Positions 1-53,635 of a stretch of 64,000 bases of DNA are shown piece by piece. A program made the position numbers and the translations under genes. The stretch lies in NCBI GenBank assembly GCA_965178125.1, contig OZ237750.1, forward strand, positions 248,001 through 312,000, given 5' to 3'. The DNA comes from Bilabrum cf. latius. Its lineage: Eukaryota. The notes under the pieces are model-generated. The model ran no database searches. It was not told where the DNA came from and worked only from the letters and a program-made list of their open reading frames with translations. Each line of letters starts with the position of its first letter. Within the stretch, counting starts at the first letter, position 1.

Positions 1-456
1 TCCAGCTATACGAGCAAGGTACTCGAAGAAGGTGTAAGAGGTTAGGAATACGATCACCAGTACTCCAATGAAAAATAAGACTAGAGCAATCCTCATAAGT
101 CCTATCAGTAAGTCCCCGCCACGATACCACAACCACCAGAGATGAGCCTTGATCGTGTTGCCTTTCGTGGACTTTATCTCGTGCTCGGTCCTCCGCATCT
201 CTTCTTTCGCCTTCTTCGCATAGCTCTGTTTAATACGATTGATCCGGTACTTCATCTCGTCCACATCGTCTGCTTGGTCAAGAATCAGTTTCTCACATTC
301 CTCCGTCGTCAGTTCATCATCCCGTTTATCTTTAACAGGGGCATTCTGTTGATTCTCAGCAGTTCCACCAGAACCATCGTCATATGACCCAATTATTTTC
401 CTTCTCCTAGATTGAGACGGTTGACGGGTTCGTGAATTGGACCGGCCAGAGGACAT
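1..456 (-). CDS. Hypothetical membrane protein, partial (runs off window start)
   Basis: Own translation: ATG at 456, 152 open codons MSSGRSNSRTRQPSQ...KAHLWWLWYRGGDLLIGLMRIALVLFFIGVLVIVFLTSYTFFEYLARIAG; charged helical region then a hydrophobic helix; absent from the ORF track because no stop lies inside the window. Confidence 0.6.
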   Translation of the reverse strand, partial: MSSGRSNSRTRQPSQSRRRKIIGSYDDGSGGTAENQQNAPVKDKRDDELTTEECEKLILDQADDVDEMKYRINRIKQSYAKKAKEEMRRTEHEIKSTKGNTIKAHLWWLWYRGGDLLIGLMRIALVLFFIGVLVIVFLTSYTFFEYLARIAG

Positions 457-640
457 TTTGACCCTATTTTGTGTGAATGGTGGCTAATCAATCCGATCGC
501 AATAAATAAGATTTTTTCAAATATCACATAACTCAATACACCTACGCGCCCAGAATTGCGGAAATATATCTTAAATAGCTATAATATTACCGCAATTTGG
601 GGCATTAGACAAGACTTATTTTCTTGATAAATGTTATAGA

Positions 641-1567
641 ATGGTAGAGATTCAAGAACCAGATATCTTTTATATTAACTCATAGGATACTATAACATCT
701 ATTAATACTAATAGACCAGTATCAATACATGAACAGCGTCAAGGTAATATCTTGACAAATTCACAAAACTACTTATTATCACTTGACCGATGGACTCTTA
801 AATGTCGTATTCCTTTATTTGTAGCAAGTAAAGAAGTAAAGAATAGCGATAATTAGTCAATTTATAAGATGTCGTTTGTGAAGAAGAGTGATGGAACTAC
901 TTACACTCGTAATATTGTCTTAACCAAGTCGTTATATTATAGTCTTAAGACCTTATCTAATGAATTTAATAATACTCTTAGTGATTTATGTGGAGATGCT
1001 AGTATTCCAACTGATAGTATAGTATTTGAATATCACGGTAAGACTAAAACTTTTAGTTTCACCCGTTTAGCGGCTTTTACAAGTGCGTGGACTTTAAGTT
1101 TTAACTTTCCTTTATTCTCTATATTTGAGACATTTGAATATGATGATGAAGGTAAAGACATTAAAAGTGATACTTATATAAATCTTTTAGATGGATACAA
1201 TGAATAGAGTGCTTCTACCTTAGATTAGTTTCCTACTATGGAGTATATTCAAATTATTAGTCCATCTCTTCCAATACTTCCAGAATTTACACCATCATAT
1301 AAAAGTACATCTAGTACAGAGATACAAAGTGAAAATATCTTAAGTGATTTCAAGATAGACAATACAACAGGAACAAGTTTTATTAAAATAAACTTTAGTA
1401 GTGGAGGAAATCATAGATGGCAATAGTTCTATAGATCAGCATTTAATAGTTATAGTATAGTACCGTATTTTAGAGATACTTTTGGAAACTTATACGAAAT
1501 ACCCTTTACTTTTGGACAAGGACTTAATATAAAAGCTCTATTTAAAAGTAAAAAGTTAATAACTTAA
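641..1567 (+). CDS. Virophage minor capsid (penton) protein, 308 aa with TAG=Gln
   Basis: Track ORFs 869 and 1238 share one frame joined by TAGs; N-terminal YLLSLDRWTLKCRIPLF and C-terminal YFRDTFGNLYEIPFTFGQGLNIKALF resemble virophage penton ends; directly upstream of the MCP; ends TAA. Confidence 0.75.
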
Positions 1568-1609
1568 AGTTAAAAATAAATAAATATCTTTAGTCTTAAT
1601 ATATTTATA

Positions 1610-3496
1610 ATGTCTGATATGGATAATGTACCTGTAGCAGCACAAAGCAAAGTCGTAGATGACGTCTCAGAACTACCAGTAACTCAAATAGCTGACGAAA
1701 AACTCAACTTTGTGGGTGATAGTCAAGCTATTACTCTCGGAACTACCCTTGGATACTCTTCCAAGTTTCAAAACCACTACGAACCAGATGGTGGTAACTC
1801 TAGCGCAACTAATGCATTTAGAAGTAATTATACTTTCGTAGTGCCATCAAATCAAGGAATGACTGACAGTAATCCCCGTCTAAGAGTTTCATTTGACGTA
1901 TACATCTATGATAGTTAGAACAATGGAGCAGTAGCTCAAACTGATATCGTCAATAAGGTAGCCCCTTCTACATTTATGGTAAATTCAATGATCACAAGTT
2001 CCACAGTTAAAATGGGAGACTTATCTCGTAGTTCATCACCTTATCAATTAGTCAATTTAATAGCTAGAAGTCTTGACCGTGCCACTCTAGCACAAATAAG
2101 TCCTGTCTTTTAGGCTGATAACACTTGGGAATTTAATACTGCCGCAAATGGTCTTGCTAAGTCTGTCCTTCAATGGGGTGTAAATGATGATAGTATTATG
2201 GAAGCTCGCGGTCCTGGTAAGAATTACCGCGCAACACTTGAAAAAGTGGATGCTAATACTCCAATACCTAATAATAATGTAACACCAACTCAAGACTATG
2301 TCAAATTACATATTGAAATCTCTGAAGCACTTCTTGCACGTCCTTTCCAATATATGATGGGTGGTAATGCTAGACCTTTTGTTGATCATCCACAATTAAA
2401 TGTTAATTTACAAATGAGAAATAACTTAATTGATAAGATGTTTAATACTTCAAGTGATTGGAATGGAGACTATGCTTTTGCTTTATCCGATTGCTAGATC
2501 CATTTTGATGTCTTTACTTATAATACTCATCTTAACTTCTTGAAGAAAGTACCTAAACAAATATTCTACAACTCTGTTGACTTTGAACTACATGAAGAGC
2601 CTAAACTTGATAATCCTATCACTACTAAAGGTGTCCATACTTTTAATAATTATCAACTTTAGACTTGCCCTTCTTGGTTTGCTGTGTGCTTAGTTGATTC
2701 TCAATATGGAGAAGCTAGTGGTACACCTCATAGAACACTTGCCATTAACAATATTAAAGTACAACTTAGGTCTTAGGGTTCTATTTTAGGAGAACTTACA
2801 CAAGACGATATCTTTAGACTTAGTGAAAGAAATGGATCAAATAGTGAGTATGCTTCTTTTACTAACTTAGATGTAACTGTAGGAGGTGCTTCTAAAGTAT
2901 ACGGATCTAATGGCTGGCTCTTATTTAGACTTAGTGATTTAAATACTCCTGAAACTATTCAAAGCAACAGTGCTGACCCTATTAGTATTCGTGTTCAAGT
3001 AGCCTATGACGAACCCCCAACCGCTGCTATGTCTCAAGGATATAAAGCTCAATTATTCTGTGCCTATGACAAGATTATCGTGAATACTAGAGGTGCCGCT
3101 ATTGAATGGCGTGAAGATAGTGCTTCTGTTGACCCTGAGAAAGTGGCTAAACCTTCTAATTATACATTTTCTAATATGAACTACTCTAAGAACGTATTAG
3201 GTGGAAGACGTCGTAAAGTGATGCAATTCTTTAAGAGAGCCTTTAACAAAGCTAAAGACTTAGGACGTAAAGTGGTAGACTTTGGAAAGAAAGCTAAAGC
3301 TAAATTTGATAAAGTGAAACCAGCTCTTCGTAAAGCAAGGCAAGCAGTAAGTGAATACTTACCCGATGAAGTGAATGACTTAGCTGAACGTGTTGGAGCA
3401 GGTCTTTTAACTAGTGGTGGAAGTCTTTTGACCAGTGGAGGTAAGAAATTAACTAAGGCTCAACTTATGAAACTTAGAAAGTAGCTCAATATGTGA
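1610..3496 (+). CDS. Virophage major capsid protein, 628 aa with TAG=Gln
   Basis: Track ORFs 1610, 2198 and 3029 share one frame; beta-rich body, then a GG-preceded basic C-terminal tail (LGGRRRK...TSGGSLLTSGGKKLTKAQL) like the protease-cleaved tail of virophage MCPs; ends TGA. Confidence 0.8.
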
Positions 3497-3683
3497 GTCG
3501 TAAATTATTAATTAATATTTAAAAGTTATAAATATTGACTAAATTTAAAAACTCAATACGGGTACGCGCCCAGAATTGCGAAAATATATCTTGAATAGCT
3601 ATAATATTACCGCAATTTCGGGCGTTCATATCTTAAGACTAGTTTAAATATTACGCCATTAAATATCCACTATATATATAGTT

Positions 3684-4106
3684 ATGGCAGCAGTATCACC
3701 GTGTGAAGACTTACTTTATATGGAGTATTCATTCTTATTCTTACCACATAGAGAAGACCCAACACTTAAATCTCAAAAGGTTTACTTAGATGATGAATTT
3801 GAAGGAGACCCAGAAGAAATAGTAATAGATAAAGACTAGATACAAGTAAATAATAGAGGTCATATAAAGACATATGTAAGTGAAGGAGGCTTTACAAAGT
3901 TAAAGGTAGGATAGATAATTGAAGAGATGGAGCAAGAGGTGCGTAATTAGAATGGTATTCATTATGATTGTATTTTTTATCATAAAGTTGAACACGACAC
4001 GAGCACAGATATTTATAAAGTAGTATGGGGGTGGTATCCAGCAGACTTTCCAACAAATGGATGCGACCCTGCTATCTTGTATAAGAAACCCCCTAATATG
4101 GATTAA
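3684..4106 (+). CDS. Hypothetical acidic protein, 140 aa (3 in-frame TAG), cassette 1
   Basis: ATG follows the shared leader; MAAVSPCEDLLYMEY...KKPPNMD, TAA; missed by the ORF track. Confidence 0.7.
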
Positions 4107-4248
4107 TTATTAAAAACTCAATACGGGTACGCGCCCAGAATTGCGGAAATATATCTTGAATAGCTATAATATTACCGCAATTTCGGGCGGTCATATCTAA
4201 AGACTAGTTTAAATATTACGCCGAAAAATATCCACTATATATATAGTA

Positions 4249-4638
4249 ATGTCAGATAAAGTAGATTTAAAAATATCGTTTTCTCAAAGTCTTGTATCAA
4301 GTGTAAACCTTGATTGGGATGGAATAGGTAAGATGTTATGTGGAAAAATCACAAGTAAGATAGAAGGAAATGAGATAGTGTTAAGACAAATAGGTCAACC
4401 GACTCCAAAAGATGGAATGATGGAGTTCTCATATACGACCGACTATAAAGCAAATCAAGTTTTTGAATTACTTAAAGACTTAACTGATGAAAGACAAGAC
4501 GCGATTATGGGATACGTTCAGTGTAAGTTAAGTGATAGCAACAGGAAAAGAAGACCATTAACTGAAGAAGATCACAGACAAATGATTCTGGATGCTATGG
4601 ATAGGAGTGTTAAAGAATATAAAAAACATATGTCATAA
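4249..4638 (+). CDS. Hypothetical protein, 129 aa, cassette 2
   Basis: Track ORF following the shared ~135-bp leader; ends TAA. Confidence 0.75.
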   Translation: MSDKVDLKISFSQSLVSSVNLDWDGIGKMLCGKITSKIEGNEIVLRQIGQPTPKDGMMEFSYTTDYKANQVFELLKDLTDERQDAIMGYVQCKLSDSNRKRRPLTEEDHRQMILDAMDRSVKEYKKHMS

Positions 4639-4941
4639 TTAAGTCTTAATAATAAAGTCTTAATATTAAAGTTATTAATATTAAGTCATATCTATGTAAT
4701 AAAAAAAAATTTCTTTGAGCTAGTAATTATACCGATGGTTTGACTACTTGGCGAAGTCATTCGTAAGTCATTGTTGTAGCGGAGATGCGAATGTCAACCA
4801 TGGACCGCTATCCCTATTAAGTCTTACGACTAAGTCTGCTACAACCACTTACGACTACTTCTACAGTATCCAAACTCCCTTCAAAGACTTGCAAGACGTG
4901 TGCTTTGTCATGAAAATGACTTACAGAACGACTTACGGCGA

Positions 4942-5016
4942 TGTCAGTGGTGGGAATCGAACCCACGACCTTGACTTTGTGAAACAATCACGATATCACT
5001 AGACCAAGACCACAAC
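4942..5016 (-). ncRNA. tRNA-like element (degenerate, positional anticodon CAC) with Pol III A and B boxes
   Basis: Minus strand TGGTCTAGTG (A box) and a perfect T-arm GTGGG-TTCGATT-CCCAC preceded by AGGTC; acceptor and anticodon stems pair poorly. Confidence 0.6.
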
Positions 5017-5191
5017 GCACCAAGAGGTAAAAAATATTATATTCAAATAAATTTAAAAATTCAATACACCTACGCGCCCAGAATTGCGGAAATATATCTT
5101 AAATAGCTATAATATTACCGCAATTTCGGGCGGTCATATCTTAAGACTAGTTTATTACTTTCGCCAAAAAATATCCACTATATATATAGTA

Positions 5192-5542
5192 ATGTCAGAT
5201 AAAGAAGATATCAAAATTGAACTATCTCAAAATTTTATAGATGAATGTCTTGTTAAAGGTGTAGGTGTCGATGATGTAGTCAGTAGTATAGGTAAAAGTA
5301 TTGAGAATCACTTTGATAAATATGTATGGATGAAACCAAAAGACAAAGGTGATGGTTATCGTTAGAATGTCTTTAGTTTTAAATTCGACAATATTATCAA
5401 GAAACTCGAAAGTACATTGGAACAGTTAGAATATGAAGAGCAAGTGAAACACGTCTAGGAGCTGATGTATCGTGTTGAAAGAAGTGAATGTGAAAGGAAG
5501 AAGAGAGAAGAAAAAATTAAAAAGACAAAAAGAGACCACTAA
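5192..5542 (+). CDS. Hypothetical protein, 116 aa (2 in-frame TAG), cassette 3
   Basis: MSDKEDIKIELSQ N-terminus resembles cassette 2 (MSDKVDLKISFSQ); ends TAA. Confidence 0.7.
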
Positions 5543-5604
5543 GTCATTTTATATAAGGTATGTATTATTAAGTCTTATTAAGTTTTTTATTAATAAGTCA
5601 TAAT

Positions 5605-8403
5605 TTAATTTTGTTGTTCTAGTGGATCATTATCCTCATCAACAAATAAAGCGGGGTCCAAGTCAACCTCTATCTCTTCATCGGGTAATTGAACCTCTTC
5701 ATCATCAACAAATATATCTACTTCACGAGTCTTTTTCTTGTTAGACCAGATATATTCCATCTCATCAATAATATCCTAATTAAATTCTACATCATAGTTA
5801 ATTTTCTTTTTCTTACAAGTCATAAATATGTCTTTCCCAAACATTGATTTATATACTTTAAGTATTTCGTAATAGAGACCTTTATCAGTGGATAGGTCAA
5901 CTTTACTTCTTCTTTGGCAGTCATACACTGTCCTATATTCATCTGTTAAGTCTTGATCTAATACTTTCTTTTTGATATTATAATCAAGATTAGTTCTTTT
6001 AAGACCCAAAGTATCAATCATCTTATTAAGTAAGACTAATTTTCTAGAACTAGACTTAGCATTGATAATATCAAACTCGCCTTTATTAATTGCTTTCACA
6101 AGTAAGTGTTTATCATCTTGTCTAAAGAATTTATTGAAATTAAATAAATTAGATAACTTACCTTTATTAATAAAGTACTCTTTGTATTTGTCAATATCAC
6201 CTTCATCTAAGTCTAAGTATTTATTGATCTTCTTGACATTAAGACAATTAATATCAAAATTTTCAAGTTGTTTTTCTTTAATGGTATCTTTGATTTCTTT
6301 ATCCTTACATCTGGTGATCTTAACAGATAAATCATAAGACACGTCATAACCGGTATCAATTAACTACTTGATCATATGTAATTTAGGGTTTGTCTTATAA
6401 CAATCTACCTTGTAAAGATAATTACGATATAGTTTCTTGAATATGATTTTAACTTTGCTCATTTCTTCTTCTACTTTGTCTTCTACTTCTACCTCGTTGA
6501 AGTCGGGATATGTATCACTGACAAATTTAACTAATTCTTCGTAGTCTTTTAAAGAGGTAGCCATAAAAGATTTAACTTGTGAAAGACTTTCATATGTGCT
6601 AGATCGTCCTTTCTAGTAATCAAAAAATATAGTGATATGTGATGGGTTTCTACATCTGTTAAGCTATTGAACCATTTGGGGAGGTGTGATAGTATGACCT
6701 TTGAAATAACCAAAGACTGGTCTAGTCATAGTGCTATCTATCCCGTAAATGACTTTAGGTGAGAAGATAATGATATCAAACATATCCATATCATAGTCTT
6801 TGTCTTCGCTTTCTGCTGTAAGTATTAAGATTTTATTTAATTTCTTATCTTTCTCGTTATCTATAATTTTAAGACTAATTAACTCATTGATTATATCAGC
6901 TTTTGTCTTACTATCACTAGCAAGCATAAATTTCTTGTGTTTCATTAACTCATCTCTAAAAGTCTGTTCGTCATTAACAAATACAGTTTTGGTGCCCTTG
7001 AACCTGTTTCTGTCATTCCTAATATATTGATAATCTAATTTTAATAATTCTAAGAAATATAGAGCATCTTGAGATAAGTCAGCATCTGCTACTATGAACT
7101 ACTTACAAGTGGTAAGAGCACGAATAAGAGTAATGAAACTCATTGGTCGCCTACCATATAAAGTCGTAGAACTTAAACAGTGTTCTAAGATACTATTAAA
7201 CTCATCTAAAAAGACAATATAATCCTTAAAGTTATAATTGCTAAGACTAACAATACTTTCAGGAGTAATAACAATACTATCACCCTATTTGTATTTATGG
7301 TCTTGATAGAATTTAGTTGATTTTGGAAGACTACGCATCTATTGCTTACCTAATAAAATACGACTTACAACTGATAAAAAGCTGTCATCTACTCTATTAA
7401 ATAAATCATTAGCAGCAGTTGTCTTTCCAGAACCAGCCCCCGACTTAACGGCATAGTTGATACCTTTCTTAAAGAATTTAATATAACGACCTTTGTCGTC
7501 AGCAGTCAAATATCTACGGTCAATCTTCTAATTGACTTTCTTGACTACTTTATTCTTGAATATCTTGTATCGATAATATAGGCTAAGTCGTTTCTTTTCA
7601 CTATCTAACTAATTAAAGAACCATTCAACACATTGAAAAGTGGAATTTTCTAATAATCGAGTAAAAATTATCTTGTTCTTAGTCGACTAATAGCTTTCTA
7701 CGTCTTGTTTGCTCCATTCATCAAACATATCATATACCTTATTACCATCTACTGGATTTAAGTATTTAGCGATATAACTTGTAGCTCTACAAACTAGATG
7801 CCAGTTATATGAATTAGAATAATACTCTTTACCTAATTGATATAAGTATTGTTTGTATTCTTCGGGTTTAATCATATAACGGTAGTCTTCAGCTGTAAGT
7901 TGTGGTGAATAGATATTTTGTAGTATGAACATCTTGACGTCAGTTGGTATTCTTTTCACGGATGTCTTTTGTATTAGTTCGTATTTCTTACCGTTGATAG
8001 AGCTAGGAGGACACATGATAAAGCTATCATTTGTGATCACATCTATATGTTCTTTTCTATTTACTGACCTCTTACTAAACTCTTCTTCATACTTAAAATA
8101 CAAATGATATCCATTGGGAGACTTGACAGTGTAAGTATTCATCTCTTGAATAAACTTATCAACACTACCATATTCCGCAATAAACTTACCATTTTGAAAT
8201 TCAGTTTTATTTTTCTCTTTTTCACAATCTAAGTCAAGGACAAAGAAACCTGCACGTCTTCCAGTTAGTAATCCAACATTAAGATTTGACTTTCTGGTGA
8301 TAAGTTTAGTAGATTCCAAATTCTACCAAGACTTAATAAGTGGTTGTTTAGAGTTGTGAGCTATTGAGAAATAAACAGGGTTAGATATGTGTTCGGTCGT
8401 CAT
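5605..8403 (-). CDS. Bifunctional primase-polymerase fused to SF2 origin-binding-protein-like helicase, 932 aa with TAG=Gln
   Basis: Four track ORFs in one frame; prim-pol motifs KQPLIKSW, NVGLLTG..FFVLDLD, KSPNGYHLYF; PriCT-like FDEWSK; helicase motifs KSGAGSGKTT, VFLDEFNS, DADLS, QQLNRCR; ends TAA. Confidence 0.8.
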
Positions 8404-8433
8404 TCTAGTATATACTATACTAAAGATAATTTT

Positions 8434-8646
8434 TTAAGTCATTTTCTAGACGCACTATTTTGGCTTAAAGGATTGAGATGGATTTTCGCGCACAACTAGA
8501 GTATTTTTAAATTTTTCAATTTCTGCTGGGGATTTCCCGATTAGTAAATAACTTATAGTCTCTTGAAACTCTATTGGTAAGTCTTGTAATTGATGTATTG
8601 GTTTATTGATAACTTGATTATTTGATTTGGTATCTATTAAATCCAT
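8434..8646 (-). CDS. Small hypothetical protein, 70 aa
   Basis: Track ORF extended through TAGs to TAA; AT-rich CTTAA...TATAGTA leader. Confidence 0.45.
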
Positions 8647-8678
8647 TATTAATAATACTATAATAATAGAATATATTT

Positions 8679-8888
8679 TTAAGTCTTATTTAATCCTTCT
8701 GTATCTGGTTCATCCTTAACCTGTTTTCTCTTCTAATAGTACCCCTTCCATTTCTCTTGATTCTTTTGGTAATATTTCTATTTAGCTTTTTTAATAGCTT
8801 CTTTCTTTTTGGTCTCCTATTCCTTGAGTCTTTGATAATCTTCCATAATGTCTTGAACCTATTTTAATACATCTTTAATATCTGGCAT
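8679..8888 (-). CDS. Small basic helical viral protein, 69 aa (4 TAG)
   Basis: MPDIKDVLKQVQD...KKAKQKYYQKNQEKWKGYYQKRK; KYYxKNxEK-type motif is common in small proteins of large DNA viruses. Confidence 0.6.
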
Positions 8889-10352
8889 TACTATAGTAAT
8901 ATACTAGATAAATCTTTAAGTTTTTTAAACTAGAAAATGACTTAAAATAAGTGGTATGACTTAGTGAATATGTAAAATTGAATACGGGTGAGCGCCCAGA
9001 ATTGCAAACATAATTTTCTTGATACTTATATATTTCCGCAATTTGGGGCGGTCATATCTGGAGATACAATTTGGGGCGGTCATATTTATTATTAGTTATT
9101 TTAAAATATCTCGTCAAGTGGTTAAGTCTTTTTGTGATATCCCGTTAAGTGGTCAATAAAATGAACGGTAAGTCAAAAAAATTAATCAAAATAAAGAAGT
9201 AGTTGATTATTGATTATTGAAGACACCTACGCGCCCAGAATTGCGACAATATCTCTTAATATCCTAATATATTTCCGCAATTTCGGGCCGTCATTTCTGG
9301 ACATTTAATATAGCACATACTAGAAATATCTTTATTACAAAATTACACCTCTATAAGATAACTATGTCAAAATTAACAAAATATAAAACTCAATACACCT
9401 ACGCGCCCAGAATTGCGACAATATATCTTAATATCCTAATATATTACCGCAATTTCGGGCGCTAGTATTATACTATACCATATTTTATTATCCTATATTT
9501 TCCATTTAATCTAGTGATTAATCATTTCAAAGTAATACACTTGACATAAACCAGTTCATTGAGTCATTTTAAAGTCATCGTCAAAACATTTATCATTTTT
9601 AAGTTATCCCGCTTTGTATTCCTTTATATCATATACTCAAACAAAGGACTTTAACATATTTAAAGAATTATGAAAAATAAAAATCAATACACCTACGCGC
9701 CCAGAATTGCAGAAATATATCTTGAATAGCTATAATATTACCGCAATTTCGGGCGATAGATAAAAGAATGTATTTTTAAGGGGATACCCTTATATTTGAA
9801 GTTTTGAAGAGATGACATATAAAAGACTTTATAAAGTGATTAATATCTCCTTCTAGTTATATTTAAATATTCAATTATTTAAGTATAGATTGACAAGTAA
9901 TAAAAAAAGAGATAAATTAAGTTGATATATTAGTTTAGTTTTATTTATTAATTTAAATTTTTCATTGGAAGTATTAAAAAGACTTTAATACTTCTGTCAA
10001 TCTCTTTAAGTATTTATTTAGTTATTTTCTAAAGTGGTAAATGTCAATTGATACTTAAAACCAAATCATAATATAAAACTCAATACACCTACGCGCCCAG
10101 AATTGCGAACATATATTCTTAAATGACTATATATTTCCGCAATTTCGGGCGGGCATATCCTAAGACTTAGGCTAGGGATTCACTCAACAGATTAAGTAAA
10201 GTAAAGGTCTAACAGATAGACATTAACGGCGCGAAGGTATTAAATTAGGTAGATATATGAATAAATAGCTATTAAATTATTATGTTCAAGTGAAGGACAT
10301 TATGAAGGACTACGGCTTAAGATGTTGTGAAGTGGTTAATATTGACCTCTTA

Positions 10353-10453
10353 TGTTATCCGCCAAAATGTGGAGTTATGATAACTCTATTTCTACTATAT
10401 AGTAGAAATAGAGTTTACTTATATAAAAACTACACACATTTTGGCGGATAACA
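10353..10453. repeat. Nested palindrome at the terminus of element 1
   Basis: 19-bp perfect inverted repeat TGTTATCCGCCAAAATGTG (10353-10371 / 10435-10453) enclosing a 34-bp perfect palindrome at 10382-10415. Confidence 0.95.
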
Positions 10454-43268: not shown

Positions 43269-45035
43269 ATGTCATTGAATACCTTTGCCCTTCAGCCAGT
43301 CAAAGTATCACCCGCAACACTAGATGTACAACCGAAGCCGTATGAAGTTCAAGAAGGTTATGAGAACCGGACTTTCCGTAAATATAACCCCTCCGGGTCT
43401 GCCGGAAACTACAACAGCGGGGTCAACTGGAATATTAGTATGCCTTCAGGTGTAGGTTTGTGCCGTCGTGCCTATGTCTCGTGCCGATTTTCTATCACCT
43501 TTTCCGTGAATAATCAAACCGCAGGTGGTCTAGCACCCTTTAGACCAGATTACGATGCTCCACGCTCCTATCCACTTAATCGCTCCATCGCAACATAGAC
43601 AGTTGGCATTAATAACCTTCGCTATACCCAGAACAACGGCGAACTAATGGACGCTCTGTCCCATTTACTAGATGATGATGTCCACCGTGTGAATTGCCTT
43701 GATAGTGTGTATAGACGCGATAATGTGCCTTCATACGCGATGATGAGTTAGTCTACGAATAACGCTCTTGCTTCGTATGAGGACGTGCTTTAGGACCAAC
43801 CAGCCCGAGGAAGTGGATTTTACAATTTGTATCAAATGGATAATACTGATGTACCCGCAGGTCAAACTCAAAATCGTGTTCTTGTTTTTGAATGCACTGA
43901 GGCGGTATTATGTCCACCTTTCCACTACGAAAGTAAATAGGAACAAACGGCTATATACGGAATTCAAACACTCTCCTTAAATATTAATTGGTCTCAACTG
44001 AGTAGAACCGTGTGGTCTCGTATTCCACAATAGGGCTTAACTGCTACCATTTAGTCGGTAGATGTCCAAGAACCAGTCCTATACCTTGAATAGATTACAC
44101 CTAAAACAGGATTTGTGCTTCCTAAATAGGTCTCGTATGATATTTTTGAGATGACTTCGTATACCCAAAGTCATAGTCCAACAATTGCCGCAGGTACTAC
44201 AGCAACTCTTTACAATAACAATATTAAGCTTAGTAATTCAGTTCCAAGTCGTTTATTTGTGTTTGCCCGTCGCTCACCTACAACCCTTTCAGTAGATTAG
44301 GGAAACACATTCATGGCAATTGATGGAATTAGTATAGAGATGAATAACCATAGTGGATTACTCGCCGACGCATCGCCACAGCAGTTATGGGACTTATCCA
44401 GAAGCAACGGACTTGAATAGCAATATAATGAATGGGCTATGCGTAAATTCGGGGATAGGGTGCTATCAGGTGGTCTGTTATGTATTGACCCCGCCAAGGA
44501 CTTAAGCTTAGATGTGGATTAGACAAATGGTAGCAACGGGTCTAACCAACTGTCTATAACCCTACGAGTGAAGAATAATGATGATGTGGGCTACGATAAT
44601 GTGTAGTGTGTTGTGATTGGATTATACGAAGGAGTATTAAATTTGATTGATGGGTCTAAGTTCGAGTATTAGCAGGGTGTCATCTCACGGGCAGATGTTC
44701 TTTCCGCCTCTAAATTACCCGTAGTATATGAAAGTCAATTAAGCGGACTACACGGTAGGGGTCTTGGTAAAAAGATTAGACACGCCTTAAAAAAGTTCGC
44801 ACACAAAACCGCTGATTGGGTAAAGAAAGGCAATCTCAAAAAAGTATTAAAGGATGGTAAGTAGGTATTTGACACCGCTAAAATGGTGGGTGAAATGGCT
44901 GGAATGGGTCGCCAAAGGAAACCCCGAAAAACTACCAAGAAAGGCAAGGGCTTAACAGGTGCCAAGTTAGGCTCGGGCTTAACAGGTGGGAAATCTTTAT
45001 CTCGTAACCAACTACTCGCAATGTTGTAGCAGTGA
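43269..45035 (+). CDS. Virophage major capsid protein, 588 aa with TAG=Gln
   Basis: DAPRSYPLNRSI, VPSRLFVF, LWDLSRSNGL, CIDPAKDLSL; Gly-motif basic C-terminal tail; ends TGA. Confidence 0.9.
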
Positions 45036-45708: not shown

Positions 45709-46956
45709 GTTTTTTAATACAAGCCTATACTAAATGGATAGTTTTTATACACTTAGTGGCGGAAAAATGAATTCTGGTTTTGTTAAGACGTACATTAGTG
45801 TGAAAGAACCAAAGAGTAAAACAACAAGGACTTGGAGAAGTGAATATCCTTATTCTAAAGAAGCTCTTGAAAAAGCAATTAAGTTTGAAGATGGTCTGGG
45901 AACAAAAGGAAAACCCAAAAAGAAATCCAAGAAGAAATCCACACAATCCAACACACTTCATAAATATTTAAAAGATGGTTTGCGAAGCACCCCCTCTCGG
46001 CGCAGTTAGCTGGCGCAACAGCTTAAAGGTGGAGTAGTGTATGGAAATACAAACGAAGTCCAGAGAAATCTTCAACAATACGGGGATAGAACAATCATTG
46101 CTATGAAAGTAATTAGAACCCCTATTAGTGGTGCGATTAATCGGTTACTCAACTGGATAACCTTGGGAAAAATGAAAAAACTAAAAAATAAACACGGATA
46201 TAATGATTTCTTCCATTTAGCCTTAGAATTGAACCTTGGAGGTGGAAAAAAGATTTATCTTGAGAAGAATGAGAGGGTTAATTTGTCCCCACGATTTTCC
46301 ACCAACAAGAAAACTCAAACTATGGAAGTAAATATTAATGGAAAACCTCAGAAAACAGTAAGGGAATTATTTGAGACCACTTTACAGAAAATTGGAGAAT
46401 ACAACTTTTATCAGTACCGTGCTTTTAGTCTGAACTGCCAAAAATTTATCCAAGATGTTCTGCGCACAAATGGGTTTTTGACACCACCCTTAAACCAATT
46501 TATTATGTAGGACGTAGAGAGTATTGCTAAGAGTGTATCGGGATTTACTAAGAGAGTTGCTAATGCTGCTACTGACGTCGCTGGGTATTTTTCCAAATGG
46601 TTCGGGAGAGGTTTAGATGATTTACCGGAAGATGTCAGAAACGCCTTAATGAAAAATTAGAAAAAGCATAAGTAGAACACAGAAAGGGATTTTGGAACAG
46701 ACTTTAAGGAAGGTTGGGATTTAGCAACTAAAACAGTTGGAAAACCAATTATTGATCCTAACGCCGGATGGGGTTCGGTGTTGATGCCAGAGTGGGAGCG
46801 CGTGAACGTCTCGTTGCGTTCCGATGGCGGTTGCGACCGGGAAGGTGCGACCAAGCCAACGGATTGCTTGCGATGACGCGCATACCCTCTCTGTGTTCAG
46901 GAGAGGGGCGGAGATTGGGTAATTTTTGAAGAAAGTTCCTGCTCCGTTCATTTAAC

Positions 46957-49900
46957 ATGAACGGCGCCGGTAGCCATCGGATCGACCCGGCGGCGCGGGC
47001 ACCTGGAAGCGCCAGGGTGATCGCCGCAGCTGCAGTGTTCGCTCGCGCGGTAGGCCAACCTGCGGTCACGTTGGCCGATTTAGCTACTCGATATGGTATG
47101 AATGATGCTGTGTTCTCGGATTTCATTGCTCGTCTCAACGTGCAGCGCGACACCATGGCGCCTCGAGATCTTGATCTTCAACGTGCACACGATGCGGGGT
47201 TCCTGTGCTATTTGCTCGACAGGTACTCATCAAAGCAGTCCTTCACGGCATCACGGTCCATTAATGCTGTCAAGAGCACCGCTCTCGCCAAGTTCGTGTC
47301 AAATGGGACGCTAACGACTCTCGGTGCACGGCTGCTTCTGCCGGCATCGCCGAGCTCCCCTCGACGGCAACAGCCTGAGCGACTCGCAGGACAAGTACGT
47401 CTTCATCATGTTCAGCAATCTCCAGAGGCTCCTTCTTCAATCGAGTCTCCATGGTCCCTGAGTTCACTACCGACGGGCCGGCGGACAGCTCCTCTTAGCG
47501 GACGGCATCGGCCACCAGGACGCCTCGACTTCGGCGCCGCCATCCATGCTTCACCTGGACGCGACCGAACGGCGTAGAGTGCCACCAGGACAGGCCGCGG
47601 AATTTCGCCCTTGCGGGCGCGGCCAGGCTCTTCGACGACGCGGCAGGCCCCGCTCGCGCGCGGCGGGCGGGCCCACCTGCACGCGTCCCCGAACCGCGGG
47701 CCCCCGGGGACAGCAGCAGATACCCAGCGCAGCGCCCAGCCCAACTTCTCAACGTCTTCACCCCCGCGGCACCAACCTCCACCTGCCTCGAGCATGATCC
47801 CCGGTAGACCAGGCACTCGGGACTTCGGCGATCCGACAGTGCTCGCGGAGGCGCTCAGCAGTGCAGCATCACGGTCAACGGGCCCGGCAGGCCCTCAGCT
47901 TCTTCTTCCTCGTGTGTCTCCGGCTTACGACTCCCCCGGCGTGACTCCGGGCACCAGCCGCTAGCTTGACGCGGTCTGGGGCCGCCTTCCTGGGGATCTC
48001 CAACGGGCAGTGTTGCACTCCACGACGCTGCGGGGAACGGCCGACCCAGCGACAATTCTGCATCTACGCCTGTTTGCGCTGTGGCACAGCATTCCGACTC
48101 TGCGCCAGGAAGAGCTGCTGTCGCGCCTCTCCGCCCACGTGGAATTACAATGGTACTTCTCGCACCGACTGGCAGCCTCGATGCACTCATCCCCGCCACC
48201 GGTCGACGCTACACCCGCTCCTCAGCCACCCCGTGAACCTCCTGTGTCATCTTCTGCCTCACCGCAGCCTGCGTCTTCAATTGACCCAGTTTCACCGGGC
48301 GCAGGCACGGCAGTGGACTCCGCGGCCGTTCGCTCGCAACCAGTGGAGATTTTGTAGCGTGAGGCCTCTGCACCTTCAATCGCTGCAATTCGAATGCAGA
48401 ATTGGTTTTCTGATGATTTCTTGGCAACGTTGACCTCGATCTTTCGCCAATCCGCGTTCATGCCGCGGTTTTGCTAGGCTGACGCGCTTCATTTGGACGC
48501 TAGCGGCCGCGATTTCGCTGCAGAACTGGCCCGTGCTCTGTTTGGTCAGGCCGTGACGAGAGCCAAGATTGAATCGGCTATTTTCTCGTTCACGAGCCGG
48601 CTTCATGCAGCTCTGCCGATGAGCAATGCTAGTTTTGGGAAGTTCGATGCGTCCAACTCGGAGTCGTCTGCTGCAGGCGGACGAGAAAAGTAGGTGCCAT
48701 CTAGCGAGTTACTATGCACTATTTACTCGGCTATTTCCTTTGCTTTAGGCTGTGTGCTCGTGCGCGCTGCTTGCGTGCATTCGGCGGCGTCCTTGCCGTC
48801 CTGGTTGCCGCAGGGCAGCAGCTCGTGGTCGTGTCCAGCATCACTAGTGCCCGATTGGAAAACCCTGGGGCAGGTTCGCAATGATTTTCTTCGTTTGGTT
48901 AGTGCTTCCGGGGCATCATCTGCATCGGCGTCCCGACTAGAGGTGGTGTTTGCCGCTGTGTGTGTGATACCACGCGGAAGTTCAGCCTTTGAGATGCTCT
49001 CCTCCCATGCTTGGCGCCATACAGGCGAACGCTGTGACGTTGAGATTCGTGACCTTGTTGGGAATGAGATTCCTTCGTGCTCTTCTGGCGACTGCATGCG
49101 TCTCCTACAATTGCTGCATCCGTGGGCCACTGAGGCATGCAGATCAGGCGAACCTGGCCTCGTGCGCGGACTGCTACAGGGAGTCCAGGCTGACATGCAG
49201 GCGCCGTCCCGTCGAGCAGCACTGTCCCGTCACTTCGACCCCCGCGGGGGCAGTGGAGGCCGGGGCAGTGGAGGCGGGGGCAGTGGAGGCTCCAGGCGCA
49301 GTGGGGGCGACAGCGACCAGCCCAGTACCGATCGTGGCGGAGGTCGACACCGTCGAGGCCGTGGACGTGGCGGTGCAGGCCAGCAAGGTGGCCAGCACCA
49401 GCGTGCGGACCGGCAGGACGGGGGTTCCACCAGGAAGTCCAAGGAGCCTTCACCTGACCCTCCCCCACGAGGTACGTCACGTCAGAGCCAGCCCAGCACT
49501 CCAACACCAACACTGCCGCAGGGGCGTACGCAGACTACCACCACATCGGACGCGTGTGCTGCTTCCACACCACCTGTCACGTCAACGCCCGCGCTTCACC
49601 CAGTCCTGGTGGCCCTAGCGCGCCCTAAGCGACCGCAGCGGCCGCCCACGGCGTCATCCACGAGGCTGCCAGGTAGGACGGACATCTCTCCAGCATTCGT
49701 TGACTGGGCATATCCAGCTCCGGATCCAAGCCATGAGTGGGCAGGGACGACAGCACCCTCCGTAGAGGACTTCATCCAGCGAAAGGACGATCACCAGCGT
49801 ACCAGAGACTGTCCCGGCGAATTCGTGGAGGCTCCAGCTGCGACGTGGGACCGTGAGCGGATCCACCTGAAGGTTCACGAAGACCCGCTGGCATTCACGC

Positions 49901-52716
49901 CACGCAAGTACTTCGACAAGGTGCCTCGCTAGACTGCAACACTGCGGACTCGGCGGGAGGTTCTGTTTGGCGGCCGCACACCGAGGAAGGCCCCGTCCCT
50001 TGCCGAGTTCAAAGCCCTCCCACGAGTCGAGCGTGTACTGGCAGCACTGAACTATGGTTGCCCCCTAGCCATCGTGGACGAGGTGCCCAAAGAGCACGAT
50101 CTAGACTACAAGGACCGTAAGCTGTCTCCGGAAGAAAAGTGGGAGATCGCCTGCGAGATCGGGCGCTCCATGCGGGCTGGCGAGCGTGACTTCGTGTCAC
50201 CCAAAGATTTCGACACAGCCCGGGCCCGGCCGCTGGTGATCCCCAAGAAGGACTCGACAAAGCTACGGTTCCTTCAGGACTCCTCACTCAAGGTGAACGG
50301 CCAGCGTACCGGTCTGAACAAGGCCATCGACTACAGTGCAGCCACGCCTGTGCAGCAGACGAGCAGCATGGACGTGCTGCGCTCGGCAGCCGCAGCAGTT
50401 CGATCCTGCCCCAAGCGTGCCAGCGGATACGTCGTCGACATTTCCTCGTACTTTCGGGTCCTGCCGGTGGCAGTGGAGGATCTCCAATACAACCTGATCA
50501 AGCTGCCCGACGGGCGCATCGTGCAAGACTTCAGGCTCTCTATGGGCAGCTCATCATCTCCCGCGTTCGCAACTACGATCAGTTCGGCTTTGGCCCAAGC
50601 CCTCGAGGAGCAGTCCATTGGCAGGGCCATGCGACCCGGACGGAGACACAAGCAGAAGCAACGACGCCGGCAGCAGCAGCACGCCAACGCCCAATCCAGC
50701 ACGACGGACCAGGCGCCCCAGGCGAACTCGTCAGCAACGTCCACCCCGCCTGCCGCTAGCACGACAACGGGACAGGTCAAGACGGCCCAAGACTAGTCCC
50801 GCCATTGGTAGGTCGAAAATGAGGTGTTTGTAGATGACTTTGCCTGCCTCGGCGGAGATCACGAAGTCGATGCATGGGCAATTCGAGCCATGGGGCAGCT
50901 GGACTCCACAAACTTCCCCGTCAGCATCTCGAAAGCATTGAAGCAAGGGGCCCCAGCCCCGGTGTTCGAGTACTTGGGCCTCACCTACGACTTGATCAAA
51001 CACGAGGTGCGGTGCCCTAAGGACAAGGCCACCGACGTCCTGCGCAGACTGCACGAGGCACTCACGACGAAGGGGATGCTGCTGTCTAGCTTTGAGACCT
51101 TGGTCGGCAAGTTGTCCTTCCTGTCGGGCGCACTTTATGGTATGCGCGGTGCTCTACGTCCCCTGTATGACGCCAAGGGCTGGGCCCTTCACAAGTAGGC
51201 CAGCCGGTCACGACCAGGTGAGGTGTGGGTCCCCACCTCCTTCGTGTCCAAGGGTGGCTTCACAGTTGGGGAAATCCTCGAGGGATTCCAGGTGGCTATC
51301 CAGCGCAAAGGCGGGCGCAGTTTTCCGATGCGGGGCACCATTGACTGTCCCATCATTCGCACTGATGCGTCGGTGACAGGCTACGGCGCCGAGCTACTTC
51401 TCCACGACACGGACGGAAACATCACATCGCACACCGGCATCCACGGCACTTGGCCGCATCGCCTAGAGGCGAAGGATGTAGCGGCGGCAGAACTTGCAAC
51501 ATGTTTGTTGGCACTGGCGCATTGGCGACAGCACCTGCGTGGACGTGTGGTGCGTTTGTGGTGTGATAATGATGCTTCCGTGTAGCTGATACGCTACGGC
51601 AGACCCAAGAGCCACATCATGGCAGCCTTACTTCGCCCTATCTTCGTACTGCAGACAACGCAAGATGTGCAGATTCACGTGAAACACATTCCTGGCGAGG
51701 ACAACATCGTTGCGGACGCTTTGAGCCGCGGCTCACAGGAGGCATACACGCACCTGGACGCGGTGTATCAGGTCGACTGTCCCACGCCGATCTGGAGGAC
51801 CTTGTACAAGCACGACCATTTCACGCTGGTGGCCACTCTGGACTCAGTGGGTTGCGCACGGCGTGGGGGCACTTCGACAACTTCCTCACGTGGTACGACA
51901 TCGACCGCAGCTTCATGGACGGGCATCTTCCAGCAGCTCGCAGACTCTTCGCGTTCAGGCTCAATGCAGCGCTCTCGAGATTTGCAGTCTTCTTAGGGGA
52001 ATGTTCGCCTCTCAGTGGCGGCACCATCGCTACATACACCAGAAATGCCTAGCGAGTCGTCATCGAGTCCACAGGAGCGTGCGGCGTCCCACGGTCAAGC
52101 TAGCTCGACAGCATCCTCCGGTACTACCACAAAGCATCGCCATCGGCGCACCCGTTGCGTCGATCTTCAGCCCCACTCCGCGCAATCCGACGGTGTTTCT
52201 CGACAGCCGGTTGCAGCACAACAGAGTAGGCTGCTCGGGCAGCTGTCTGTCTCTGCTTCTGTGGGGGCCTCCGGCTGGGAGAGCTCGTCGGTGCGTCCAG
52301 ACGACAAGCCGGCCTCCAATGGCAGCAAGTGCAGTTCATCACGCGAGACGGACGCATCCATGGTGTTGCCATCCGCCTGGGCCTCCACAAAGCCGACGGT
52401 CCAGCCAAGTTCTCCATCCAAGCCGCAGAGCCCATCGCAGTCCATTGCAGAGCCGGACGATGGGCAGTCACAGGCAGCAGGTTCTGCGGCGTGCGAGCCT
52501 TCGTGGCGTGGGCAGCAGCGAGCCACGCCCCAACTGCAGGCGCAGACGAAGACTACGCCCGGTAGCTGGCGCTCAGCTGCCCCACGTCAGGGCCAGTCTT
52601 CGTGGCGAACACGAAGCCGATCGTCAAGGCGCAGGTCGTACGGGCGCTCCGCAGCTTCTGCTCACGAGAAGTTGCAGGAGCGGTGCACGGACATTCCATC
52701 CGCATCGCGGCAGTGA
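46957..52716 (+). CDS. Ngaro gag-like + reverse transcriptase + RNase H polyprotein, 1919 aa with TAG=Gln
   Basis: Ten track ORFs in one frame separated only by 11 TAGs; IPKKDSTKLRFLQD, VDISSYF, LSMGSSSSP, FVDD, YLGL, RTDAS, AELAT, CDN, HIPGEDNIVADALSR; ends TGA. Confidence 0.85.
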
Positions 52717-52910
52717 TGTGTTTGGACCGTGCTGGGGTCGCCTTCGAGGTCATTAGGCGATTCGGCAGATGGAAGTCGGCATCTGCATGCGAGGTGTACT
52801 TGCGGGGCGTCAGGGAAGGCTTGCCTCCTCTGGAGCTCGGCGGCAGGAGCCTCGATTTGAACAGGCCAGTGTGGGTGCTGGCCAGCGCGCTGCGGCTGAA
52901 CTTGGAGTGA
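51573..52910 (+). CDS. Ngaro tyrosine recombinase (overlapping frame, no ATG before the catalytic domain)
   Basis: GLRLGEL (R), GLHKAD (K), HSIR (HxxR), GRWKS (W), EVYLR (Y); frame open from 51573 with TAG=Gln; ends TGA. Confidence 0.85.
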
Positions 52911-53635
52911 GCCACACAGCCGCAGCGTACAAGACATGGCGGTAAGATTTGGCGGAGTAGTGCACGTGCTCTTCCCAGCCCCGGTCAGTCCGGTCAAGGG
53001 TAGCGCACAGGCACAGCTTTGTCAGGTCTTGCCATGTCTGATTGTTAACGAGACTAGGTTGCGCGTACACTCTGGCATCATGATCCTAACGCCGGATGGG
53101 GTTCGGTGTTGATGCCAGAGTGGGAGCGCGTGAACGTCTCGTTGCGTTCCGATGGCGGTTGCGACCGGGAAGGTGCGACCAAGCCAACGGATTGCTTGCG
53201 ATGACGCGCATACCCTCTCTGTGTTCAGGAGAGGGGCGGAGATTGGGTAATTTTTGCCCACCCTCCCAACCCCCTCCTCCTCGGCGGAGTAGTGCACGTG
53301 CTCTTCCCAGCCCCGGTCAGTCCGGTCAAGGGTAGCGCACAGGCACAGCTTTGTCAGGTCTTGCCATGTCTGATTGTTAACGAGACTAGGTTGCGCGTAC
53401 ACTCTGGCATCAGAAAGAAATCCATTCGCATACGAATGACCCAGTATCGGGTATGTATCTGGAATTATTTGGAGGTCAATGTCAGTGTGAAACCAAACGT
53501 TCAAGAGTTATGAAAATGGCGTCCATTTTAAGAGGAAAAGGAATATCCAAGAAGAATGCCCTAAAACAGGCTTGGAAAATATTTGCCTACGATACTTAAA
53601 TCTAACTCTATAGTATAATACTATAGAATACAAAA

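What the first reader, a model, noticed from the sequence alone, without database searches (positions are those of the whole stretch)
4700..5020. tRNA-headed structured non-coding RNA inside a virophage
Seen on the minus strand: an A box, a perfect T-arm/B box, broken acceptor and anticodon stems, then ~240 nt that are less AT-rich than the flanks. The tail has complementary segments (4763-4772 with 4915-4924; 4773-4780 with 4838-4845) and ends in a long T run at ~4701-4709; a weaker T4 lies at 4913-4916. Known: adenovirus VA RNAs and gammaherpesvirus TMERs are Pol III RNAs with such internal promoters. Inference: a ~100 or ~310 nt host Pol III transcript that could be made from the silent provirus without a helper virus. 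A tRNA-derived SINE is the alternative.
Basis: partly seen in the sequence, partly recalled or inferred. Interest (0 to 1): 0.72.

Follow-up and report, generated by a model that had tools for sequence, protein, structure and literature searches.

The report
Virophage tRNA-headed non-coding RNA gene
A small virus that sits integrated in a protist genome carries, in every copy, a roughly 310-base RNA gene built from a host valine tRNA plus a folded tail, which the host could read while the viral protein genes are off; it would be a latency RNA in a virus group where none has been described.

Summary
The unit (about 5021/5016 to 4706, minus strand) is a fixed part of one ~24 kb mavirus-related endogenous virophage: 14 copies for 14 capsid genes of this type, no dispersed host copies. 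The head comes from host tRNA-Val(CAC): 31 of 42 3' bases are identical, and 0 of 1000 shuffles score as well. It keeps the A and B boxes at tRNA spacing, the T arm and an imperfect acceptor helix, but not the D arm or an in-register anticodon stem. The tail folds better than shuffles (z -3.2). The internal T4 is lost in 3 copies, so ~310 nt, not ~100. Two public runs each hold one identical contig crossing the head/tail junction; one runs on into a non-genomic A-rich end after four U's. That only hints at transcription: neither run is on record as RNA. No Piwi gene was found in the host, so a microRNA route is unlikely. Best reading: a host Pol III latency RNA acting whole as a protein decoy or scaffold; the function is inferred. 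In passing: host and virophages read TAG as sense, probably Gln.

The parts
1..10453 (.). Right-hand 10.5 kb of a ~24.4 kb AT-rich endogenous virophage (terminal inverted repeats); the rest lies left of the window
   Evidence: GC about 30% against 55-70% host; MCP, ATPase, protease-like, rve-chromo integrase and primase-helicase genes; inverted end repeats
4706..5021 (-). Predicted Pol III transcription unit, about 311-316 nt
   Evidence: Conserved block in 14 of 14 copies; flanks vary or are replaced just outside it; contigs of runs X8 (4814-5016) and X7 (4706-4964) match with no differences
5017..5021 (-). Probable 5' leader; G5021 is 15 nt upstream of the A box; pairs with trailer 4937-4940
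   Evidence: Pair probabilities 0.83-0.86; the start site is inference
4942..5016 (-). tRNA-Val(CAC)-derived head; 5' half rearranged, no D stem, no in-register anticodon stem
   Evidence: 31 of 42 identical without gaps over 4983-4942 to host tRNA-Val(CAC); 0 of 1000 shuffles; 25/30 against at most 21/30 for 15 other host tRNA genes
4996..5006 (-). A box
   Evidence: Sequence; 44 nt from T8 to G53 against 45 in the host tRNA-Val (counted)
4977..4983 (-). Remnant anticodon loop with CAC at 4981-4979
   Evidence: 6 of 7 identical to the host tRNA-Val(CAC) loop, in register with the T arm
4950..4966 (-). T arm with B box (4963-4953)
   Evidence: Pair probabilities 0.78-0.96; its one variant (4951, 4 of 14 copies) turns U-A into U-G
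4942..4949 (-). 3' acceptor strand and discriminator A
   Evidence: 7 of 8 identical to host tRNA-Val(CAC)
4891..4936 (-). Tail domain 1: interrupted hairpin; the T4 is in its terminal loop
   Evidence: Folds; one A-U to G-U change and three loop changes among copies
4712..4887 (-). Tail domain 2: long interrupted helix closed just before the U run, ending in a three-way junction
   Evidence: Tail z -3.24, 0 of 200 shuffles; stems invariant in 14 copies
4820..4831 (-). 4-bp hairpin with GUAA (GNRA) loop
   Evidence: Predicted in the MFE folds of the four alleles; invariant, so no covariation
4782..4814 (-). Variable apical hairpin, four alleles in two classes (9 and 5 copies)
   Evidence: 15 of 33 sites variable against 6 of 283 in the rest of the RNA; pair retention depends on gap placement
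4701..4709 (-). T run, Pol III terminator
   Evidence: At least 7 T in all 14 copies; the deletion 4117-4702 in three copies stops at it; the X7 contig leaves the genomic sequence after four T
5075..5132 (+). Neighbour, not part of the RNA: one of 22 oriented hairpin repeats of the element; faces the + strand ORF 5192-5542, away from the RNA
   Evidence: Repeat list; promoter role is inference

Best explanation
The virophage captured a host tRNA-Val(CAC) gene and kept it as an internal RNA polymerase III promoter and folded 5' cap for a ~235 nt structured tail. Steps: (1) Shown: single-copy, fixed cargo of this virophage type, with A/B boxes at tRNA spacing and a conserved U run. (2) Inferred from eukaryotic Pol III biology: host TFIIIC/Pol III reads it from about G5021 to the U run on the integrated provirus, with no need for the giant-virus factors that drive virophage protein genes. 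(3) Hinted by public contigs: molecules exist that run through the head/tail junction and stop after four U's with an added A-rich end, so the RNA is not obligatorily cut at the discriminator; a trim to the acceptor base at 5016 is possible. (4) Inferred: it does not decode and does not feed an Argonaute. It most likely acts whole, as a ribonucleoprotein decoy or scaffold like VA, EBER or the microRNA-independent role of TMERs: the tRNA-like elbow and long imperfect helix bind a host or giant-virus RNA-binding or translation factor, which helps the provirus persist or prepares the cell for co-infection. The partner is not identified.
For: 14 RNA copies for 14 capsid genes of this type, none elsewhere. 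Flanking small ORFs are dispensable (4249-4638 missing in 6 of 13 other copies, 5192-5542 in 2) while the RNA is kept in 13 of 13. Origin from tRNA-Val(CAC). Tail z -3.24. All 6 variable sites outside the apical hairpin are wobble-compatible, in a loop, or lengthen the U run. One C-G/G-C swap between fixed anchors in the apical hairpin. Runs X7 and X8, from two different studies, each give a contig identical to the window allele that crosses position 4942; X7 ends in a 21-nt A-rich loose end found in none of the 14 genomic flanks, and X8 leaves the sequence at 5016. The adjacent virophage hairpin repeat faces away. The host has three large-subunit RNA polymerase loci.
Against: No binding partner or phenotype. 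X7 is only guessed to be RNA, X8 is flagged probably DNA, and contigs cannot prove an RNA's ends or strand. X8's 23-nt loose end is unexplained and absent from the genome at up to 2 mismatches. Copies are about 99% identical, so most pairs never vary: only 3 of 97 predicted pairs show a double change, all from one allele split. Apical pair retention runs from p about 0.01 to 0.37 with gap placement, and apical allele energies are no better than random substitution. The allele in three copies has a different minimum-energy fold. The RNA outside the apex (2.1% variable) is no more invariant than the neighbouring helicase (0.9%) or ORF 5192-5542 (0%). The head alone is not unusually stable (z -0.05). 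No relative was found outside this virophage type.
Confidence: 0.5

Rival explanations
1. DNA-level role: the A/B boxes recruit TFIIIC/Pol III as a tRNA-gene-type barrier or anchor that keeps the provirus from being fully silenced; the RNA is a by-product.
For: The best kept features are the B box, A-B spacing and terminator; the B box is closer to consensus than in the host tRNA-Val, which has A54. Barrier activity of tRNA genes is recalled. An earlier AI note on Polinton ends proposed the same (e1-8072744, not checked).
Against: It needs no 235-nt folded tail, yet the tail is kept whole in 14 of 14 copies with z -3.2.
Confidence: 0.18
2. A tRNA-derived SINE from an earlier host inserted once in the ancestor of this virophage and is a transcribed passenger.
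For: tRNA head plus unrelated body plus short A-rich end is the SINE layout (recalled). The loose ends in X7 and X8 could also be a retro-copy in DNA. Copies are too young to show strong constraint.
Against: No copy outside the virophage and no match of the tail to any other host sequence at E 0.001; no convincing target-site duplication by eye; kept while neighbours are deleted, one deletion ending at the terminator.
Confidence: 0.17
3. Dicistronic precursor: RNase P and RNase Z cut out the tRNA-like head and release the tail as a separate guide or small RNA; the variable hairpin gives target specificity.
For: Acceptor, T arm and discriminator A can form. tRNA-led processing is known for TMERs (PMC4337559, passages). 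Variation is concentrated in one hairpin.
Against: No Piwi match and a single RNase III domain in the host. Both public contigs cross the cut site. No C/D or H/ACA boxes by eye and no Rfam match. Similar divergent patches occur in protein genes, and no distant site is linked to the apical allele.
Confidence: 0.1
4. A working or suppressor tRNA that supplements translation, for example of the many in-frame TAG codons.
For: 75 in-frame TAG in 19 ORFs of this copy; tRNA genes are known in virophages (PMC6905037, passages).
Against: No cloverleaf. The loop remnant is CAC (Val), not CUA. The host has its own CUA-anticodon tRNA and TAG inside conserved genes.
Confidence: 0.03

Closest known systems
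Murine gammaherpesvirus 68 TMERs (PMC4337559, passages read)
   Same: Viral Pol III RNA with a non-decoding tRNA-like head followed by hairpins; some function lies in the tRNA-like part without microRNAs
   Different: Protist virophage; one gene; head traceable to a named host tRNA; long branched tail; no Argonaute found in the host; no sequence homology claimed
Adenovirus VA RNAs and EBV EBERs (recalled; EBER/TMER parallels seen in search listing)
   Same: Internal A/B-box Pol III promoter, U-run end, imperfect helices, probably acts whole as a decoy
   Different: About twice as long, with a real tRNA remnant; the known targets (PKR, Dicer) are not expected in this host
tRNA genes of virophages and polinton-like viruses (PMC6905037, PMC12220804, passages read)
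   Same: tRNA-derived cargo in a small integrating DNA virus
   Different: Those were found as intact tRNAs by ARAGORN or Rfam; this is invisible to both and carries a 235-nt tail
tRNA-derived SINEs (recalled)
   Same: tRNA head, unrelated body
   Different: Not dispersed; one fixed position in one virus type; no LINE-like tail match
EMALEs of Cafeteria burkhardae (PMC8547959, PMC10945749, passages read)
   Same: AT-rich mavirus-like elements with terminal repeats and rve integrase in a GC-rich host, some interrupted by retrotransposons
   Different: Those have intact ORFs and are described as silent; the eLife text has 0 occurrences of 'tRNA', 'non-coding' or 'genetic code'. This element reads TAG as sense and has the RNA gene

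Membership tests
Type-2 Pol III gene | A and B boxes at tRNA spacing | tested here: met
   44 nt against 45 in host tRNA-Val; perfect B box
Type-2 Pol III gene | Oligo-T terminator | tested here: met
   At least 7 T in 14 of 14 copies
Type-2 Pol III gene | Transcript made by Pol III | tested here: inconclusive
   Contigs in two runs not on record as RNA; polymerase identity cannot be tested here
tRNA | Cloverleaf with D and anticodon stems | tested here: not met
   ARAGORN and Rfam negative; stems do not pair in register
TMER (tRNA-miRNA-encoded RNA) | tRNA-like head followed by hairpins | tested here: met
TMER (tRNA-miRNA-encoded RNA) | RNase Z cut, then Dicer/Argonaute microRNAs | tested here: not met
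   No Piwi match, one RNase III domain (the assembly may be incomplete); contigs cross the cut site
VA/EBER-type decoy RNA | Binds and inhibits a host antiviral protein | not testable with these tools
   No partner known
tRNA-derived SINE | Dispersed copies with target-site duplications | tested here: not met
   14 of 14 copies at the same place in one virophage type
tRNA-derived SINE | 3' end shared with a partner LINE | tested here: not met
   No other genomic match of the 341-nt query at E 0.001; a former host cannot be tested
SRP (7SL) RNA or derivative | Similarity to host SRP RNA / Rfam SRP models | tested here: not met
   Host SRP RNA found; alignment score reached by 344 of 500 shuffles; no SRP hit to E 10
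Virophage (mavirus-like) | MCP, penton, packaging ATPase, protease | tested here: met
   MCP matches 6g45 at E 1.5e-15; ATPase and C57-like protease only weak Pfam hits below cut-off; penton by position only

The most novel reading that the evidence does not exclude
The RNA is a constitutive latency factor of a provirophage: a host-transcribed tRNA mimic that acts before any virophage protein is made, for example by tying up a giant-virus or host translation factor or by excluding related virophages through its allele-specific apical hairpin. It would be an RNA arm of virophage-based defence or persistence in a host without RNA interference.
Probability: 0.2. Interest if true: 0.85.

Novelty: new variant of a known kind. 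Interest (0 to 1): 0.62.

Why it matters
Integrated virophages are described as silent until a giant virus switches them on (PMC10945749, bioRxiv 10.1101/068312, passages), but the RT-qPCR test I read assayed five protein genes. A host-read RNA gene would give the dormant virus a way to act on the cell or on an incoming giant virus, and would show an independent origin of the herpes/adenovirus Pol III RNA strategy in a protist virus. It is directly testable with a northern blot. Standard tRNA and Rfam scans miss it, so such genes may be undercounted. The TAG reassignment shared by host and viruses is a separate lead and a host-range marker.

Tried and rejected
Suppressor tRNA for TAG: rejected. 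SRP derivative: rejected. Coding role: no ATG-led frame kept across alleles; the 91-codon + strand frame is broken in the other allele class. Relatives elsewhere: none. IMG/VR gave one phage match to the T arm only, 0 for a tail pattern, no MCP relative and six unrelated matches for the hairpin repeat. JGI metagenomes gave nothing for the MCP (weak: only two peptides, both with Gln) or the head pattern. Other virophage types of this genome (6 regions fetched of 23 further MCP loci, plus the window's second element) had no perfect T arm, no nhmmer hit and no covariance-model hit. Seven near-matches to the B box/acceptor pattern are not tRNAs. Public runs: no RNA holder listed. X7 and X8 cover nothing else in window 1500-7500, but a hole proves nothing: X5 also lacks the capsid gene. 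Linkage search for a co-varying partner: none. The pair-count tool gave no result; pair retention was computed in scripts. A genome-wide search with the RNA model was not available. Literature: eight full-text searches showed no such RNA in a virophage and no report of UAG=Gln in a bicosoecid; subscription papers and supplements were not seen.

Full report
Observation. The T arm is the only perfect one in the 24 kb element; 7 of 200 third-order Markov simulations had one. GC is 41-48% against 29-30% in the flanks. Both complementary pairs are exact, but only 4838-4845/4773-4780 is likely to form (0.60-0.99); 4915-4924/4763-4772 has probability 0.01. ARAGORN and Rfam at gathering score are blank.

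Context. Window 1-10453 is the right part of a ~24.4 kb AT-rich element with inverted ends. Its capsid gene matches the PDB chain 6g45 (recalled as the mavirus capsid) over residues 68-540, E 1.5e-15. It also has an rve-chromo integrase, a primase-helicase, and weak ATPase and protease hits. The host was not identified. A GC-rich genome with such elements and nested retrotransposons resembles Cafeteria (PMC8547959, passages), which is a resemblance only.

Copies. The 341-nt query has 14 matches in the 48.6 Mb genome, 94-100% identical. The T-arm pattern at up to 2 mismatches has the same 14, and there are 14 capsid genes of this type next to them, plus 23 distant ones. All 14 lie in the same viral context. 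Neighbouring small ORFs are lost in some copies (4249-4638 in 6 of 13 other copies, 5192-5542 in 2 of 13), the RNA in none. One deletion, in three copies, stops at the T run. So it is not a dispersed SINE of this host.

Origin of the head. The last 42 bases (4983-4942) are 31/42 identical without gaps to host tRNA-Val(CAC), including the CAC loop, T stem, 3' acceptor strand and discriminator; 0 of 1000 shuffles reach the alignment score. Against 17 host tRNA genes the two Val genes score 25/30 and the next best 21/30. The tRNA list is incomplete (63 of 780 candidates scored). A genome-wide pattern gives the two Val genes and one chance site as the nearest non-viral matches. The 5' half is rearranged: the A box keeps tRNA spacing to the B box, the acceptor strand pairs best with 5016-5011, and no D stem or in-register anticodon stem forms. 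The head alone is not more stable than shuffles.

Tail. It folds into a hairpin (4936-4891) and a long interrupted helix (4887-4712) ending in a GNRA hairpin and a second hairpin; z -3.24, 0 of 200 shuffles. The whole 321 nt gives only z -1.52. The six variable sites outside the apex are all compatible with this fold, and three of them remove the internal T4. The apical hairpin 4814-4782 holds 15 of 33 variable sites in four alleles. One C-G/G-C swap is unambiguous; overall pair retention has p from about 0.01 to 0.37 depending on gap placement, and allele energies are not better than random change. Similar divergent patches occur in the protease, integrase and other ORFs, so recombination with a diverged relative explains the patch without selection. 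No distant site is linked to it. One allele has a different minimum-energy fold, and the RNA is no more invariant than its closest neighbours. Evidence for selection on the fold is therefore suggestive only. The tail is unrelated to host SRP RNA.

Public runs. Eleven runs were listed, none on record as RNA; I laid 4 of them on 1500-7500. X7 (guessed RNA) has one contig, 4964-4706, with no differences, that continues after four U's into a 21-letter A-rich end seen in none of the 14 genomic flanks. X8 (guessed RNA, flagged probably DNA; another study) has one contig, 5016-4814, with no differences, that leaves the sequence at the base of the acceptor-like helix into 23 letters not found in the genome. 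Both cross the head/tail junction and the T4. Contigs cannot show ends or strand, so this is a hint. It fits a 311-nt RNA with an added tail, and also a retro-copy. X9 and X5 show the 4111-4704 joint, the arrangement of three genomic copies.

How it most likely works. Shown: fixed viral cargo, tRNA-Val origin, promoter and terminator signals, a folded tail. Inferred: host Pol III reads it from the integrated virus. The virus's own 22 oriented hairpin repeats, probably the helper-dependent gene signals, include one next door that faces away. It is not the TAG decoder, since the host has a CUA tRNA. It is unlikely to yield microRNAs, since no Piwi domain and only one RNase III domain were found (absence is not proof). 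That leaves action as a whole RNA-protein decoy or scaffold (0.5), ahead of a DNA-level TFIIIC barrier (0.18), a passenger SINE (0.17), a processed guide (0.10) and a working tRNA (0.03).

Comparison. It works like TMERs, VA RNAs and EBERs in layout but is a member of none. TMER passages were read in PMC4337559; VA and EBER are recalled. Intact tRNAs are known in virophages and polinton-like viruses (PMC6905037, PMC12220804, passages), found by tools that miss this unit. The EMALE papers do not mention such an RNA; PMC9952930 had 0 hits for the terms and PMC10690425 had none relevant. All papers were seen as keyword passages or listings; no supplements were read, and they may bear on novelty. 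Eight searches found no description. No relative was found in IMG/VR, JGI metagenomes or the other virophage types sampled. Two earlier AI notes on Polintons supplied a rival and two references and are not support.

Genetic code, in passing. Six copies tile with long ORFs only if TAG is open, not TGA or TAA. This copy has 75 in-frame TAG in 19 ORFs. Across copies TAG alternates with CAA at 4 sites, CAG at 1, AAG at 2 and TAA at 1. Host HSP70-family genes contain TAG (2 of 7 matches flagged) and the four complete ones end in TGA or TAA; a nuclear CUA tRNA exists. Gln is the likely meaning. UAG=Gln with UAA as stop is listed for Iotanema and some ciliates, not for a stramenopile, in PMC11687900 (passages).

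Verdict. A real, apparently undescribed Pol III-type RNA gene of a virophage; a new variant of a known kind; interest 0.62. Transcription is hinted and function is inferred.

Noticed in passing
window 641-8403, 38246-58676; L037 (G000:C23:907607-907679); L067, L070: TAG is a sense codon, probably Gln, in the host nucleus and in the virophage types examined: long ORFs only with TAG open, TAG/CAA/CAG switches between copies, a nuclear CUA-anticodon tRNA. I found no report of this code in a bicosoecid or of an endogenous virophage using it. Worth its own follow-up.
   Followed up: partly
window 547, 3567, 4132, 5075, 8993-10094: An oriented ~60-110 bp hairpin repeat occurs 22 times in the element, upstream of genes and five times in each terminal repeat; deletions between copies often end in or near it.
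   Followed up: partly
window ~37000-60000: A second, unrelated virophage (Sputnik-like capsid 43269-45035, pPolB, rve-chromo integrase), also TAG-recoded, interrupted by a GC-rich retrotransposon at about 46950-53000 with a 1919-codon frame containing 11 TAG.
   Followed up: partly
G000 whole genome: No Piwi domain and a single RNase III domain: the host may lack RNA interference despite at least 37 capsid loci.
   Followed up: partly
window element, 1-10453 and leftwards: AAGAC/GTCTT and AAGTC/GACTT are 3 to 3.6 times over-represented and palindromes such as TCGA, CATG, GGCC and CCGG strongly depleted; the AAGTC word is about four times denser still in the RNA. Possibly a restriction or methylation signature of the helper virus.
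   Followed up: no
window 5016 (run X8): The 23-letter loose end is nearly complementary to the RNA's own T arm and acceptor strand but not exactly, and is absent from the genome. Unexplained; may be a library chimera.
   Followed up: partly
14 copies, e.g. protease, integrase, window 4023-4091: Copies are mosaics with short patches of high divergence shared in different combinations, pointing to recombination with diverged relatives; the window copy has a ~760 bp segment ending near position 530 that 11 of 13 other copies lack.
   Followed up: partly
L107 (G000:C17, about 142030-142290): Host SRP RNA located, 73 bits against Protozoa_SRP.
   Followed up: yes
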